DNA of 64,000 bases, taken from assembly GCF_000026545.1 (NCBI RefSeq), contig NC_011601.1. One strand, given 5' to 3'. The DNA is from Escherichia coli O127:H6 str. E2348/69 (GTDB taxonomy: Bacteria > Pseudomonadota > Gammaproteobacteria > Enterobacterales > Enterobacteriaceae). The position numbers are program-made. Below, in pieces: positions 9,001-15,000 of this stretch. Position 1 is the first letter of the stretch, and every line of letters starts with the position of its first letter.

Positions 9001-12000
9001 ATCAACCACGTACAAGGTAAGCCCGTGATGATAGTCGACGCCGAGCAGGGGTACATCATCCAGCAACTGGTGGCGGCGTTGTATCAATCCGCAGAAACAG
9101 GGATGCGTGTGGAATTATGACCAGGCCAGTAACGTTAACGGAACCCCATTTCAGCCAGCATACCCTGAACAAGTATGCTTCGCTGATGGCGCAGGGGAAC
9201 GGCTATCTTGGGCTTCGCGCCAGCCATGAAGAAGATTACACGCGCCAGACGCGCGGCATGTATCTGGCAGGGCTTTATCATCGGGCGGGGAAAAATGACA
9301 TCAACGAACTGGTGAACCTGCCTGACGTCATAGGGATGGAGATTACCTTGAATGGTGAACTTCTTGCGCTATCCCGCGAAACGTGGCAGCGCGAGCTTGA
9401 CTTCGCCAGTGGAGAATTACGTCGCAATGTCGTCTGGTCTTCAGCCAGCGGCGCACGTTATGCCATTGCCAGCCGTCGCTTTGTTTCGGCAGAACAACTG
9501 CCGCTGATGGCGCTGGAAATCAGCATTACGCCGCTGGACGCTGACGCGTCAGTGCTGATTTCAACAGGCATTGACGCCACGCAAACCAACCACGGACGAC
9601 AACATCTCGACGAAATCCAGATGCGGGTGTTTGGTCAGCATCTGATGCAGGGGATCTACACCACCCAGGATGGGCGCAGTGATGTGGCCATCAGCTGTTG
9701 CTGTAAGGTGAGCGGTGATGTGCAGCAATGCTATACCGCCAAAGAGCGCCGTTTACTGCAACATACCTGCGCGCAGCTTCACGCAGGTGAGACGTTGACG
9801 CTGCAAAAACTGGTGTGGATCGACTGGCGGGACGACAGACAAGCCGCTTTAGACGAATGGGGCAGTGCGTCGCTTCGTCAGCTTGAAATGTGCGCGCAGC
9901 AGAGTTACGACCAACTTCTTGCAGCATCAACAGAAAACTGGCGTCAATGGTGGCAGAAACGTCGTATCACGGTAAACGGCGGCGATGCGCACGATCAGCA
10001 AGCGTTAGATTATGCGCTTTATCACCTGCGCATCATGACGCCTGCCCACGATGAGCGCAGCAGCATTGCGGCGAAAGGTTTAACCGGCGAAGGCTACAAA
10101 GGCCACGTTTTCTGGGATACAGAAGTATTTTTGCTACCGTTCCATCTGTTTAGCGAACCGACGATTGCCAGAAGTTTACTGCGTTATCGCTGGCACAACT
10201 TGCCTGGCGCGCAGGAGAAAGCGCGACGCAACGGCTGGCAGGGCGCTCTGTTTCCGTGGGAAAGCGCGCGTAGCGGCGAAGAAGAGACGCCGGAATTTGC
10301 TGCCATTAACATTCGTACCGGGTTGCGGCAAAAAGTGGCCTCTGCGCAGGCGGAACATCATCTGGTGGCCGATATCGCCTGGGCGGTTATTCAATACTGG
10401 CGGACCATGGGGGATGAAAGTTTCATTGCTCATGAAGGCATGGCGCTACTTCTGGAGACGGCAAAGTTCTGGATTAGCCGCGCGGTGAGGGTTAACGACC
10501 GTCTGGAAATTCATGATGTTATTGGGCCAGACGAATATACCGAACATGTCAATAATAACGCCTTCACCAGCTATATGGCGTATTACAACGTCCAGCAGGC
10601 GCTGAATATCGCTCGTCAGTTTGGCTGTAGCGACGACGCGTTTATTCATCGTGCAGAAATGTACCTCAAAGAACTGCGGCTGCCAGAAATTCAGCCCGAC
10701 GGCGTTTTGCCGCAGGATGATTCGTTTATGGCTAAGCCGGTGATTAATCTGGCGAAATACAAAGCGGCGGCGGGGAAGCAAACCATTCTGCTGGATTATT
10801 CACGCGCAGAAGTGAACGAGATGCAGATCCTCAAACAAGCTGATGTGGTGATGCTCAATTACATGCTGCCGGAGCAGTTCTCAGCGGCATCGTGTCTTGC
10901 CAATCTGCAATTTTATGAACCGCGCACTATTCACGACTCGTCATTAAGTAAAGCAATCCACGGCATTGTTGCCGCACGCTGTGGCCTGCTGACCCAAAGT
11001 TATCAGTTCTGGCGCGAGGGGACTGAAATCGATCTTGGTGCTGATCCACATAGCTGTGATGACGGTATCCACGCTGCCGCAACTGGCGCTATCTGGCTGG
11101 GGGCGATTCAGGGTTTTGCCGGGGTGAGCGTGCGTGACGGTGAATTACATCTCAATCCGGCGTTACCTGAGCAGTGGCAACAGTTGTCTTTCCCTCTGTT
11201 CTGGCTGTCTCTTATACACAAATCCCCACCCGGGGATTTGTGATGTCTGTCAGTCTGCTTTAGGGGGACTCTTTCCATCCGGTAGTTTCCTTCCTCCCCG
11301 GCAGCGATTTTTTGAACTTTTTCCTCACCTGTTGATCTTCTCTTATATTTCATTTTCTTCGGGTCTGTTATGGTACTTTCTGATTGTTATTCATGGGCTA
11401 ACGAGCAGTTTGGACATGCCCGTCTCGGTGATCCGCGTCGTACACGACGCCTTGTGTCACTGGCCTCTTCTCTCGCTCAGCATGCAGGTCTTTCTATTGT
11501 GAAATCATCCCAGTCCACTGCTCAGGTTGAAGGTGCGTACCGCCTGATACGTAACCCGTCTGTGTCCCCGCAAGCCATTGCCGAAGCCGGATTTACCGCC
11601 ACTGTAAGGGCATGTGAGGCTCATCCGCTGCTCCTCGCGCTGGAAGACACCACCACCATTAACTTCAGTCACAGTACGGCATCTGATGACCTGGGGAATA
11701 CCACCACTAACCCGAAGACGCGCGGGCTGCTGGCTCACTCTGTCCTGATGTACGCCCCCGACAGCGCCCTGCCAGTCGGTCTTATCGAACAGCAGCGCTG
11801 GAGTCGTGCCACGGACACCTACGGTGTTAAGCACCAGCGAAAAGAACGTCCCTATGAAGAAAAAGAAAGTTACCGCTGGCAGCAGGCTTCGGAGCGCATG
11901 GCCGAACGGCTGGGGGAGATACAGAAACGGGTAATCACTGTCTGTGACCGGGAAGCGGATATCTGGCATTACCTGCATTATAAAGTCAGCCACGGGCAGC

Positions 12001-15000
12001 GCTTCGTGGTGCGTGCAGCACAGAATCGCCGGCTGGAAGAAGCACCCGGCAAGCTCTTCGAACTGCCGGAAGTCCTGGCAACCGCGGGAAGCCACACGCT
12101 GAATGTGATGCAAAAAGGCGGGCGGGCAGCCCGCCAGGCCCGGATGTTCATCAGTTACAGCGAAGTCAGCATAAAAAATCCCGACAACAGCGGCCAGGCG
12201 CTCCCGCTCACGTATGTCTGTTGCCGGGAGCAGGCAGAGGACGGCGCCTGCTGGCATCTGCTGACGTCAGAAAAAGTGGCGAGTGCCGCCGATGCGCGAC
12301 GTATCGTCAGCCATTACGAGCGACGCTGGCTGATAGAGGAATACCACAAGGCGTGGAAAAGTGGTGGTACATGTGTGGAATCGCTGCGAATGCAGACCCG
12401 GGATAACCTCGAGCGCATGGTGGTTATCAAGGCGTTTATCGCGGTGCGGGTGCTGGGCCTGCGGCAGGGCGGTATCAGTGAAGAAACACAAAATGACAGC
12501 TGTGAGAAAATACTGACGCCGACAGAGTGGAAACTGCTGTGGGTTAAGCTGGAAGGAAAACCGCTTCCGTCACAGATGCCGACACTGAAATGGGCCTGTC
12601 TGAAACTGGCGAAACTGGGGCGATGGCATGACAGCAAACGCACCGGTCGCCCCGGTTGGGTAGTCATGTGGGATGGCTGGTTCAGACTTCAGGATATGGT
12701 TGAGGGTTACCTGGTGATGAAGTCTCTTGATCAGGAGATCTGATCAAGAGACAGCTGTTCTGGCAGGGCTGCGAATTACAGGTCACTCTCGACGCGCAGC
12801 GTATTGCGATTCGAACTTCTGCGCCCGTTTCACTGCGCTTGAACGGTCAGCTTATTTACGTCGCTGAAGAATCTGTTTTCTGTTTGGGGGATTTTATTTT
12901 GCCCTTCAATGGGACCGCTACCACACATCAGGAGGGTGAATGAAACTGCAAGGGGTAATTTTCGATCTGGATGGTGTAATCACCGATACCGCGCATCTGC
13001 ATTTCAAGGCGTGGCAGCAGATTGCCGCTGAAATTGGCATCAGCATTGATGCGCAGTTTAACGAATCCCTAAAAGGGATCAGCCGCGATGAGTCTCTGCG
13101 GCGCATTCTGCAGCACGGGGGCAAAGAGGGCGACTTTAACCCGCAGGAGAGGGCGCAACTGGCGTATCGCAAAAATCTGCTTTACGTCCACTCACTGCGC
13201 GAACTGACGGTTAATGCTGTGCTGCCCGGCATTCGCAATTTGCTGGCTGATCTCCGTGCACAGCAGATCCCTGTAGGGCTGGCTTCTGTCTCCCTGAATG
13301 CGCCGACGATTTTAGCAGCGCTGGAGCTGCGCGAGTTTTTCACCTTCTGCGCGGACGCTTCCCAACTTAAAAACTCGAAACCGGACCCGGAAATCTTTCT
13401 CGCCGCCTGTGCCGGACTGGGCGTGCCGCCGCAGGCATGTATCGGCATTGAAGATGCGCAGGCGGGCATTGACGCCATTAACGCCAGCGGTATGCGCTCG
13501 GTGGGGATCGGCGCGGGCTTAACCGGGGCGCAATTACTGTTGCCCTCAACGGACTCCCTGACCTGGCCGCGGTTATCGGCCTTCTGGCAAAACGTATAGC
13601 AAAGGAATCAACATGGCTCAGCTTTCGTTACAACATATTCAAAAAATCTACGATAACCAGGTGCATGTGGTGAAGGACTTCAACCTGGAAATTGCCGATA
13701 AAGAGTTCATTGTCTTTGTCGGTCCGTCAGGCTGCGGTAAATCGACCACCCTGCGCATGATTGCCGGGCTTGAGGAGATCAGCGGCGGCGATCTGTTGAT
13801 CGACGGCAAACGAATGAATGACGTTCCAGCCAAAGCGCGCAATATTGCGATGGTGTTCCAGAACTACGCGCTGTATCCGCATATGACGGTCTACGACAAC
13901 ATGGCGTTTGGCCTGAAGATGCAAAAAATCGCCAAAGAGGTGATTGATGAGCGGGTGAACTGGGCGGCGCAAATTCTCGGCCTGCGAGAGTACCTGAAAC
14001 GCAAGCCGGGCGCGCTTTCTGGCGGGCAACGCCAGCGTGTGGCGCTCGGGCGGGCGATTGTGCGCGAAGCGGGCGTGTTTTTAATGGATGAACCGCTCTC
14101 TAACCTTGATGCCAAGCTGCGCGTGCAAATGCGCGCAGAGATCAGCAAGCTGCATCAGAAACTGAACACCACCATGATCTACGTGACCCACGATCAGACC
14201 GAAGCGATGACCATGGCGACGCGGATTGTGATTATGAAGGATGGGATTGTTCAGCAAGTAGGTGCGCCGAAAACGGTTTATAACCAACCTGCGAATATGT
14301 TTGTTGCCGGATTTATTGGATCGCCTGCGATGAATTTTATTCGCGGCACGATCGATGGCGATAAATTCGTTACGGAAACGCTTAAATTAACCATACCCGA
14401 AGAGAAATTAGCGATTCTGAAAATACAGGAAAGTTTGTATAAGCCCATCGTGATGGGAATACGCCCGGAAGATATTCATCCGGACGCGCAAGAAGAAAAT
14501 AACATTTCCGCCAAAATTAGCGTGGCAGAATTAACCGGTGCTGAATTTATGCTCTACACCACGGTTGGGGGGCACGAACTGGTGGTCCGTGCTGGTGCGT
14601 TAAATGATTATCATGCAGGAGAAAATATCACTATTCATTTTGATATGACTAAATGTCATTTCTTTGATGCAGAAACGGAAATAGCAATTCGCTAAATACA
14701 GGGGGAAGGCATTCCCCCAGGATAATACAAGGAACAATAATGAAAAATTTATTACCCTGTACCGCACTGGTGATGTGTGCGGGAATGGCCTGCGCACAGG
14801 CCGAGGAAAAGAACGACTGGCACTTTAATATCGGCGCGATGTACGAAATAGAAAACGTCGAGGGTTATGGCGAAGATATGGATGGGCTCGCGGAGCCTTC
14901 TGTCTATTTTAATGCCGCCAACGGGCCGTGGAGAATTTCTCTGGCCTATTATCAGGAAGGGCCGGTAGATTATAGCGCGGGTAAACGTGGAACGTGGTTT

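What the first reader, a model, noticed from the sequence alone, without database searches (positions are those of the whole stretch)
11205..12754. Intact IS50/Tn5-family insertion sequence with Tn5-type ends but a diverged transposase
The 1550-bp element ends in CTGTCTCTTATACACAAAT, which matches the Tn5 mosaic end over the first 16 bp, and in the exact IS50 inside end CTGTCTCTTGATCAGATCT with its two GATC Dam sites and the transposase stop codon embedded, as in IS50. The 457-aa transposase keeps the DDE/YREK catalytic signature yet is only moderately similar, by eye, to Tn5 Tnp as I recall it. No internal start aligns with the Tn5 inhibitor start. Conserved ends with a diverged enzyme suggests a natural relative of IS50 rather than a laboratory Tn5 derivative.
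Basis: partly seen in the sequence, partly recalled or inferred. Interest (0 to 1): 0.8.

Follow-up and report, generated by a model that had tools for sequence, protein, structure and literature searches.

The report
A copy of known ISEc13
The 1550-bp element is an intact copy of ISEc13, an already catalogued natural relative of the Tn5/IS50 jumping gene that is present in about 30 copies in the enteropathogenic E. coli strain E2348/69, so the element is ordinary. Its marked habit of landing in CCCC...GGGG palindromes may not have been described.

Summary
The window is 100% identical to the E. coli O127:H6 E2348/69 chromosome. Window 11205-12754 is 100% identical to copies annotated "IS4-like element ISEc13 family transposase", and the exact 457-aa protein is named "ISEc13 transposase" in NCBI and UniRef.

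- **Ends:** 17/19 to the Tn5 outside end (also 17/19 to the mosaic end) and 19/19 to the IS50 inside end.
- **Transposase:** 39% identical to Tn5 Tnp. It keeps D93/D193/E323 and the YREK residues, has all three Tn5 Pfam domains, and has no start codon at the position of the Tn5 inhibitor start.
- **Insertion:** It sits in ycjT with a true 9-bp duplication. This insertion occurs only in E2348/69-derived assemblies among 5,426 complete genomes.
- **Second copy:** A copy with one mismatch lies inverted at 58062-59611, with a 10-bp duplication.
- **Distribution:** 873 of 5,426 E. coli genomes hold a near-full copy, and E2348/69 chromosomes show 27-30 matching places.

Extra finding: across 21 reconstructed targets the duplication is 8, 9 or 10 bp. 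In 19 of the 21 the site fits CYC-N-[N8-10]-N-GRG, often the apex of a terminator-like hairpin. The background frequency of that motif is about 0.001 per position. I found no description of this preference in the searchable literature.

The parts
11196..11204 (.). Left copy of the 9-bp target-site duplication CTGTTCTGG (ycjT sequence)
   Evidence: The empty site in strain SCU-485 has one copy.
11205..11223 (+). Left (outside-end-like) terminal 19 bp, CTGTCTCTTATACACAAAT. It contains TTATACACA, the DnaA-box-like segment of the Tn5 outside end.
   Evidence: 17/19 to the Tn5 OE taken from IS50R locus L003, and 17/19 to the mosaic end.
11217..11242 (.). Perfect subterminal hairpin CACAAATCCCC-ACCC-GGGGATTTGTG (11-bp stem) that overlaps the left end. 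It lies in a 5' leader that is 73 nt longer than that of IS50. Function unknown.
   Evidence: (-12.4 kcal/mol, z -6.4).
11311..11339 (+). Candidate Dam-sensitive promoter region (TTGAAC-N17-GATCTT, GATC at 11334). It aligns with the IS50 region upstream of tnp that contains the Dam sites. This is inference only.
   Evidence: Read from the sequence and the MAFFT alignment to IS50R. The consensus promoter scan found nothing.
11370..12743 (+). ISEc13 transposase gene, 457 aa. DDE = D93/D193/E323; YREK = Y316/R319/E323/K330.
   Evidence: NF033590, 514 bits against a cut-off of 160; PF14706, PF01609, PF02281; the exact protein is named ISEc13 transposase.
12722..12752 (.). Perfect 13-bp-stem palindrome GTCTCTTGATCAG-GAGAT-CTGATCAAGAGAC, formed by the inside end and an inward-facing partial copy of it. 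It adds a third GATC at 12729.
   Evidence: (-13.7 kcal/mol, z -5.0).
12736..12754 (-). Right terminal 19 bp, identical to the IS50 inside end CTGTCTCTTGATCAGATCT. It has two GATC sites (12737, 12742), and the transposase stop codon TGA (12741-12743) lies inside it.
12755..12763 (.). Right copy of the 9-bp target-site duplication CTGTTCTGG
9117..11204 (+). 5' part of the interrupted ycjT (kojibiose phosphorylase). The 3' remnant is 12755-12943, just upstream of pgmB.
   Evidence: RefSeq annotation of E2348/69 and intact ycjT in other strains.
58062..59611 (-). Second ISEc13 copy, differing by one nucleotide (element position 126: C here, T in copy 1). It is inverted relative to copy 1. It sits in the apex of the pdxI/azoR intergenic terminator hairpin, flanked by the 10-bp duplication CACTTTCGTG (58052-58061 and 59612-59621).
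   Evidence: Empty sites in strains A25 and SCU-111 have one copy of the 10-mer.

Best explanation
Window 11205-12754 is one copy of ISEc13, a catalogued insertion sequence of the IS4 family, IS50 subgroup. It inserted recently into the 3' part of ycjT in the enteropathogenic E. coli O127:H6 strain E2348/69.

The mechanism is inferred from homology to Tn5. The single 457-aa DDE transposase binds the two 19-bp ends through its N-terminal domain and pairs them in a dimeric synaptic complex. It excises the element by the IS4/Tn5 hairpin cut-and-paste route, then joins the 3' ends to staggered positions in the target. That leaves a short duplication, 9 bp here.

Shown here: identity with ISEc13, intact ends, an intact catalytic signature, true target duplications, many near-identical copies, and strain-specific insertion sites. 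Together these indicate an active or very recently active element.

Inferred only: the chemistry, Dam control through the GATC sites in the inside end and near the presumed promoter, and regulation without a Tn5-type inhibitor protein.

Target choice differs from Tn5. ISEc13 strongly prefers 5'-CYC-N | N8-10 | N-GRG-3' palindromes, commonly the apex of G+C-rich terminator-like hairpins, and its duplication varies from 8 to 10 bp.
For: - **Source of the window:** the window equals NZ_LT827011.1 1495214-1559213 exactly.
- **Identity with ISEc13:** the element is 100% identical to ISEc13-annotated copies on E2348/69 chromosomes (27-30 matching places each) and on plasmid pMAR2. 873 of 5,426 genomes hold a copy covering at least 80% of it. 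The exact protein is named 'transposase of ISEc13' / 'ISEc13 transposase'.
- **Family assignment:** NF033590 scores 514 bits against a cut-off of 160. Pfam finds Tnp_DNA_bind, DDE_Tnp_1 and Dimer_Tnp_Tn5. Tn5 transposase structures match at E = 6e-84.
- **Catalytic residues:** the DDE, YREK and W298-equivalent residues are conserved.
- **Insertion events:** empty sites prove the 9-bp and 10-bp duplications. Both window insertions occur only in three E2348/69-derived records.
- **Copy similarity:** copies differ by 0-4 nucleotides across strains.
- **Target motif:** 19 of 21 targets fit the motif, against a background of about 0.001 per position. Targets fold far better than background (median -17.2 against -6.9 kcal/mol).
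Against: No experiment was done here, so transposition activity, the hairpin mechanism, Dam dependence and promoter location are all inferred. I could not compare directly with the ISfinder type entry. The name therefore rests on the NCBI and UniRef annotation of the identical protein. The consensus promoter scan found no sigma-70 promoter in the leader. The target-site sample (21 sites) is drawn from surviving insertions, so selection against gene-disrupting insertions contributes to the intergenic bias. Selection does not, however, explain the base-precise motif. The window's own copy 1 is one of the two sites with only a half motif.
Confidence: 0.96

Rival explanations
1. A new, uncatalogued natural relative of IS50.
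For: The transposase is only 39% identical to Tn5 Tnp while the ends are nearly those of IS50.
Against: It is 100% identical to copies annotated as ISEc13 in RefSeq and PLSDB. The exact protein is named ISEc13 transposase in NCBI and UniRef. ISEc13 is routinely reported by mobile-element typing tools (PMC7729385, PMC11476756).
Confidence: 0.02
2. A laboratory Tn5 or mini-Tn5 derivative, or mosaic-end (Nextera) contamination in the assembly.
For: The first 16 bp equal the engineered mosaic end, and the other end equals the IS50 inside end.
Against: DNA identity to IS50R is about 50% outside the ends, and protein identity is 39%. The element has target duplications inside chromosomal genes. It occurs in hundreds of natural isolates from humans, animals, water and metagenomes.
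Confidence: 0.005
3. The two inverted copies (11205-12754 and 58062-59611, outside-end-like ends pointing outward, as in Tn5) form a 48.4-kb composite transposon that moved as a unit.
For: The geometry matches Tn5: inverted copies with inside ends facing inward. ISEc13 pairs are reported as putative composite transposons in Salmonella (PMC7729385).
Against: Each copy has its own matching duplication (9 bp and 10 bp) and its own empty site in other strains. The intervening genes (pgmB ... pdxI) are core E. coli genes in the order annotated for this region. The outer flanks do not share a duplication.
Confidence: 0.01
4. An inactive fossil copy that merely looks intact.
For: No activity assay was done. 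No consensus promoter was found. Degraded and internally deleted ISEc13 relics do exist.
Against: The ORF is intact with all catalytic residues, and both ends and the duplication are perfect. Copies are 99.7-100% identical, and insertion sites differ between closely related strains. The same hairpin was hit independently with different duplication lengths or orientations.
Confidence: 0.03

Closest known systems
ISEc13 (ISfinder name; IS4 family, IS50 subgroup; first annotated on EPEC EAF plasmids such as pMAR7/pMAR2)
   Same: All of it matches. The nucleotide sequence is 100% identical to copies annotated as ISEc13 on the E2348/69 chromosome and plasmid. The protein is identical to the one named ISEc13 transposase.
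   Different: Nothing; this is a copy. Only the insertion site (ycjT) is specific to the E2348/69 lineage.
IS50R / Tn5
   Same: The 19-bp ends match (17/19 outside end, 19/19 inside end). The stop codon and two Dam sites lie inside the inside end. The three-domain transposase architecture is shared, as are DDE, YREK, the W298 equivalent and the N-terminal GDPRRT / EGAYR DNA-binding motifs. Size is similar (1550 against 1534 bp)..
   Different: Protein identity is 39% and DNA is unalignable outside a few patches. There is no Met56-equivalent inhibitor start. The leader is 73 nt longer and carries a perfect hairpin. The duplication is 8-10 bp, whereas Tn5 gives a fixed 9 bp (established knowledge). 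The target motif is strong (CYC-N/N-GRG arms flanking the duplication), whereas the Tn5 consensus A-GNTYWRANC-T is weak (Goryshin et al. 1998, cited in PMC2266710).
IS186/IS421 and IS231A (IS4 family elements with G/C-run palindromic targets)
   Same: Like ISEc13, these DDE IS4-family elements prefer symmetric G/C-run targets, and IS186 has a variable duplication length. From memory, the IS186 target is G>=4-N3-6-C>=4 and the IS231A target is GGG-N5-CCC. IS231A specificity is cited in PMC2266710.
   Different: Polarity and position are opposite. In ISEc13 the C-run lies 5' and the G-run 3' of the duplication, and both lie outside it. The transposases belong to different IS4 subgroups.
ISRm22 (IS4 family) and IS1397/ISKpn1/IS621 (elements that target REP palindromes)
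   Same: They insert into extragenic palindromes, which are a 'safe' niche (PMC1525189).
   Different: ISEc13 targets are not E. coli REP/BIME sequences. They are any CCCY...RGGG palindrome, including terminator hairpins and occasional sites inside genes.

Membership tests
IS4 family, IS50 subgroup (De Palmenaer et al. 2008, PMC2266710) | Single transposase ORF without a frameshift, with a DDE triad and the Y-(2)-R-(3)-E-(6)-K signature | tested here: met
   One 457-aa ORF. D93, D193, E323 and Y316-R319-E323-K330 align with the Tn5 residues.
IS4 family, IS50 subgroup (De Palmenaer et al. 2008, PMC2266710) | Size 1350-1550 bp, ends beginning 5'-CT, direct repeats of 8-9 bp | tested here: met
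   1550 bp and CTG... at both ends. Duplications were 8 bp (14 sites), 9 bp (6) and 10 bp (1). The single 10-bp case lies just outside the published range.
IS4 family, IS50 subgroup (De Palmenaer et al. 2008, PMC2266710) | Profile-level membership: curated NCBIfam IS4 model and the Tn5 transposase domains | tested here: met
   NF033590 at 514 bits (cut-off 160) and NF049926 at 46 bits (cut-off 27). PF14706, PF01609 and PF02281 are all found. Tn5 Tnp structures match at E = 6e-84.
ISEc13 (same element as the catalogued IS) | Near-identity to sequences carrying that name (ISfinder convention from memory: isoforms share more than 95% amino-acid or more than 90% nucleotide identity) | tested here: met
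   100% nucleotide identity to RefSeq and PLSDB copies annotated 'IS4-like element ISEc13 family transposase'. The exact protein is named 'transposase of ISEc13' / 'ISEc13 transposase'.
ISEc13 (same element as the catalogued IS) | Direct alignment to the ISfinder type entry | not testable with these tools
   ISfinder is not among the available databases.
IS50 itself (IS50R/IS50L of Tn5) | High nucleotide and protein identity to IS50R | tested here: not met
   39% protein identity. About 46-53% identity in a global DNA alignment, with only short local matches outside the ends.
IS50 itself (IS50R/IS50L of Tn5) | In-frame internal start (Met56) producing the inhibitor protein | tested here: not met
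   Met56 aligns with Gln52 (CAG). The nearest in-frame GTG codons (Val44, Val65) have no convincing ribosome-binding site.
IS50 itself (IS50R/IS50L of Tn5) | 19-bp outside and inside ends | tested here: met
   17/19 and 19/19. ISEc13 shares the ends but is not IS50.

The most novel reading that the evidence does not exclude
ISEc13 may be a Tn5-like transposase with a strong and so far undescribed target specificity. It inserts between symmetric half-sites 5'-CYC-N and N-GRG-3' set 8-10 bp apart, typically at the apex of G+C-rich terminator-like hairpins. The stagger follows the spacing or parity of the palindrome and is not fixed at 9 bp. Its ends are almost those of Tn5, so it could also cross-react with Tn5 or mosaic-end constructs in strains such as E2348/69. 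The selectivity itself is well supported here (19 of 21 sites). What is uncertain is whether it is already recorded, for example in ISfinder notes or in the E2348/69 genome paper, neither of which I could read.
Probability: 0.4. Interest if true: 0.5.

Novelty: already known. Interest (0 to 1): 0.2.

Why it matters
As submitted, the finding re-identifies a catalogued insertion sequence, so its value is mainly for annotation. It explains the ycjT pseudogene and a split pdxI/azoR terminator in E2348/69.

Two points are of some practical interest.

1. A natural element whose ends are 17/19 and 19/19 identical to Tn5 ends sits in about 30 copies in a strain that has long been mutagenised with Tn5 derivatives (that history is from memory). 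Cross-mobilisation or instability of Tn5 and mosaic-end constructs in such hosts can be tested.
2. A close structural relative of the well-understood Tn5 transposase appears to choose targets very selectively. That would give a tractable system for asking how a Tn5-type transpososome reads target DNA, and possibly for engineering targeted tagmentation enzymes.

Tried and rejected
- **Species-representative genomes:** a scan for the 38-nt left end gave 0 hits, so nothing was learnt about host range that way.
- **Papers not held:** the E2348/69 genome paper (PMC2612414) and Reznikoff et al. 2004, the comparative analysis of IS50 transposase (PMC532410), are not in the library. I could not check whether they discuss ISEc13 copy number, ends or targets.
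- **IS4 family review:** its text and supplement legends do not mention ISEc13.
- **Literature searches:** two searches for terminator or hairpin targeting by IS4-family elements in E. coli found no description of ISEc13.
- **Promoter scan:** the sigma-70 consensus scan found no promoter in the leader. The leader just upstream of the start codon shows no stable structure (third sequence).
- **Lab Tn5 contamination:** rejected; see the rival explanations.
- **48-kb composite transposon:** rejected; see the rival explanations.
- **Hairpin structure alone as the target:** rejected as the sole determinant. Several sites (L010, L016, L017, L018, L008 and window copy 1) carry the CYC/GRG arms without a centred strong hairpin.
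- **REP/BIME targeting:** considered and rejected, because the targets are not REP sequences.
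Full report
**What is there.** The region was read directly. A 1550-bp element occupies 11205-12754. It begins CTGTCTCTTATACACAAAT and ends ...AGATCTGATCAAGAGACAG. It is flanked by the direct repeat CTGTTCTGG at 11196-11204 and 12755-12763. One long ORF, 11370-12743 on the + strand, encodes 457 aa.

To avoid relying on memory for the Tn5 ends, I recovered a genuine IS50R. My recalled Tn5 transposase sequence matched an 'IS50R family transposase' on plasmid pO86A1 at 100%. 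The surrounding 1534 bp (locus L003) start with CTGACTCTTATACACAAGT and end with the inside end.

Against these, the element's left end is 17/19 identical to the outside end. The right end is 19/19 identical to the IS50 inside end, with two GATC sites and the stop codon TGA in the same register.

**What it is.** The whole 64-kb window is base-for-base identical to E. coli O127:H6 EPEC E2348/69, NZ_LT827011.1 1495214-1559213. The element itself is 100% identical to copies annotated 'IS4-like element ISEc13 family transposase' on the E2348/69 chromosomes and on its plasmid pMAR2. Those chromosome records show 27-30 matching places each. Among 5,426 complete E. coli genomes, 873 hold a copy covering at least 80% of the element and 2,991 hold at least a fragment. 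Copies also occur on plasmids of Escherichia, Shigella, Salmonella and Klebsiella.

The exact 457-aa protein is present in the public protein collection under the names 'transposase of ISEc13' and 'ISEc13 transposase, RepID Q0H069_ECOLX'. ISEc13 is routinely reported by mobile-element typing tools (PMC7729385, PMC11476756).

**Relationship to Tn5/IS50.**
- The transposase is 39% identical to Tn5 Tnp by BLASTP (188 identical residues in a global alignment). It hits the Tn5 transposase crystal-structure sequences at E = 6e-84 over its whole length.
- It scores 514 bits on NCBIfam NF033590 against a cut-off of 160. It contains the three Pfam domains of Tn5 Tnp: Tnp_DNA_bind, DDE_Tnp_1 and Dimer_Tnp_Tn5.
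- D93, D193 and E323 align with the Tn5 catalytic D97, D188 and E326. Y316, R319 and K330 align with the YREK residues, and W295 aligns with W298. The N-terminal GDPRRT and EGAYRxIRNP segments that contact end DNA in Tn5 are conserved. The functional assignments of these residues come from established Tn5 knowledge.
- At the DNA level the two elements are essentially unalignable outside the ends: 46-53% identity in a global alignment, with only short local matches.
- Tn5 Met56, the start of the inhibitor protein, aligns with Gln52 (CAG). No convincing alternative internal start is present.
- The ISEc13 leader is 165 nt, against 92 nt in IS50.

It describes ISEc13.

**Evidence that this copy results from real, recent transposition.**
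- Strain SCU-485 has an intact ycjT (kojibiose phosphorylase) with a single CTGTTCTGG at the insertion point.
- Only three records among 5,426 genomes carry the occupied site, and all three are E2348/69 or derivatives.
- RefSeq annotates ycjT here as a pseudogene split by the IS. The insertion removes about the last 59 codons and sits just upstream of pgmB in the ycj operon.
- Copies from different strains differ from this one by 0-4 nucleotides.

Activity itself was not tested.

**A second copy.** BLAST of the element against the window found a second copy at 58062-59611 on the minus strand, with one mismatch at element position 126. It sits in the apex of the pdxI/azoR intergenic terminator hairpin (CCTCCCAC-GAAA-GTGGGAGG followed by T7). 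It is flanked by a 10-bp repeat. Empty sites in strains A25 and SCU-111 contain one copy of the 10-mer, so the 10-bp duplication is real. This insertion too is confined to E2348/69 records.

The two copies are inverted with their outside-end-like ends pointing outward, the geometry of Tn5. They bracket 45 kb of core genes. Each copy has its own duplication and its own empty site, so they are independent insertions and not a composite transposon that moved as a unit.

**Target choice (beyond the original finding).** I looked at flanks of further copies for two reasons: the two window copies had different duplication lengths, and copy 2 sat in a hairpin. The sources were:
- ten best-matching places in other genomes (analysed);
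- ten places in genome CP148541.1;
- 43 metagenome contigs that contain the left end.

After removing duplicates and reconstructing one pair of swapped flanks, 21 two-sided targets were available. Duplication lengths are 8 bp (14 sites), 9 bp (6) and 10 bp (1).

The bases flanking the duplication are highly constrained:

| Position relative to the duplication | Base | Sites |
|---|---|---|
| -4 | C | 21/21 |
| -3 | C or T | 21/21 |
| -2 | C | 20/21 |
| +2 | G | 20/21 |
| +3 | G or A | 21/21 |
| +4 | G | 21/21 |

The full pattern CYC-N-[N8-10]-N-GRG is present in 19 of 21 sites. Its frequency in the non-IS part of the window is about 0.001 per position (61 matches in 60.9 kb). The nominal binomial probability is about 2e-55. 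That figure assumes the sites are independent, which holds only approximately.

Five of the seven distinct one-sided metagenome flanks checked also show the CYC half-site at the expected distance.

The reconstructed targets fold much better than random 40-mers of the window (median -17.2 against -6.9 kcal/mol, Mann-Whitney P = 1.5e-10). In most, the duplication is centred on the dyad. About a third carry an adjoining T-run or A-run, as intrinsic terminators do.

Several observations argue for genuine site selection:
- The agp/yccJ hairpin was hit in two strains with different duplications, 8 bp and 9 bp (L014 against L019).
- The GCCCCT-GTTTATGC-AGGGGC site was hit in both orientations (L022 against L051).

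Sites such as L016, L010, L017 and L018 have the arms but no centred hairpin. Recognition of the double-stranded half-site sequence is therefore the more economical explanation, more so than recognition of an extruded hairpin. Terminator stems with C-rich 5' arms are simply the commonest natural carriers of the motif.

The finding's own copy in ycjT is one of the two exceptions. It has a good left arm (CCCT), but its right arm (C-AGGG) is displaced by one base.

Tn5, by contrast, gives a fixed 9-bp duplication and has only a weak consensus. That statement is established knowledge; Goryshin et al. 1998 is cited in PMC2266710 and PMC1525189. Palindrome targeting has precedent in the IS4 family: ISRm22 in REPs (PMC1525189) and IS231A (cited in PMC2266710). 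From memory, IS186 also prefers G-run/C-run targets with variable duplications. I found no description of this preference for ISEc13 in the searchable literature. I could not consult ISfinder or the E2348/69 genome paper.

**Other anatomy.** Both ends carry a perfect subterminal hairpin:
- CACAAATCCCC/GGGGATTTGTG at 11217-11242, which overlaps the left end;
- GTCTCTTGATCAG/CTGATCAAGAGAC at 12722-12752. This is the inside end paired with an inward-facing partial copy of itself, and it adds a third GATC.

Their function is unknown. Possibilities include insulation from read-through transcription, transcript stabilisation, or an extra transposase-binding site. A TTGAAC-N17-GATCTT stretch (11311-11339) aligns with the Dam-site-containing region upstream of tnp in IS50. 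It is a candidate Dam-sensitive promoter, but the consensus promoter scan reported nothing, so this remains inference.

**Verdict.** Interest for the finding as submitted is low. The target-site selectivity and variable stagger raise it modestly if they prove to be unrecorded.

Noticed in passing
window 11196-11204/12755-12763 and 58052-58061/59612-59621; loci L007-L029: ISEc13 target duplications vary: 8 bp (14 sites), 9 bp (6) and 10 bp (1). 19 of 21 reconstructed targets fit CYC-N-[N8-10]-N-GRG, often the apex of terminator-like hairpins. One hairpin (agp/yccJ) was hit independently with 8-bp and 9-bp duplications, and another site was hit in both orientations.
   Followed up: yes
window 11205-12754 (+) and 58062-59611 (-): The two ISEc13 copies are inverted with their outside-end-like ends outward, the geometry of Tn5. 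They bracket 45 kb of core genes (pgmB ... pdxI). Each has its own duplication, so they did not move as a unit, but the pair is a substrate for inversion.
   Followed up: yes
L023 and L024 (genome CP148541.1, 2304717-2307290 and 2365194-2367767): Two oppositely oriented ISEc13 copies about 60 kb apart have swapped flanks. Each lacks a direct repeat, but L023-left pairs with L024-right (CTCCCCAA) and L024-left with L023-right (CGAACCAG). This indicates an inversion by recombination between the copies.
   Followed up: partly
L007 (plasmid pMAR2 of E2348/69, 15027-16576): This plasmid copy has no direct repeat. Its two flanks each carry a half-site (CCTCT... and ...AGAGGG) from different targets, which suggests an IS-mediated deletion or recombination.
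   Followed up: no
window 11330 (element position 126): The only difference between the two window copies is T in copy 1 against C in copy 2. The four other E2348/69-derived copies fetched (L007-L010) have T, and most copies from other strains have C (14 C, 4 T among 20 fetched copies). The position lies just upstream of the GATC in the putative promoter region. The sample is biased towards copies identical to the query, so no conclusion was drawn.
   Followed up: partly
window 11217-11242 and 12722-12752: There are perfect subterminal hairpins at both ends of the IS, with 11-bp and 13-bp stems. The right one is the inside end paired with an inward-facing partial copy of itself and adds a third GATC. 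Function unknown.
   Followed up: partly
metagenome loci L027, L029, L032, L035, L038, L040, L050, L052, L056, L059, L062: Internally deleted or shortened ISEc13 relatives (954-956, 1402-1414, 1445 and 1500 bp) retain both ends and are 94-97% identical. The 954-bp form recurs at one conserved locus (...CACAGAACCCCC-AGCTAGGC...). Such relics probably account for the 2,991 of 5,426 E. coli genomes that have partial matches.
   Followed up: partly
window 42546-42904 (next to ttcA) and 44130-44729: RefSeq annotates remnants here. There is a partial tyrosine recombinase and a DUF1627 fragment beside ttcA, which is the Rac prophage attachment region in K-12 (from memory). There is also a frameshifted metal ABC transporter permease.
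   Followed up: no
window 56009-56970: Only a C-terminal paaX fragment and paaY remain, next to a truncated helix-turn-helix gene. The rest of the phenylacetate (paa) cluster appears to be deleted in this strain.
   Followed up: no
window 34905-36359 and 37197-38341: RefSeq annotates frameshifted pseudogenes here: a DHA2-family MFS efflux permease and the diguanylate cyclase dgcM.
   Followed up: no
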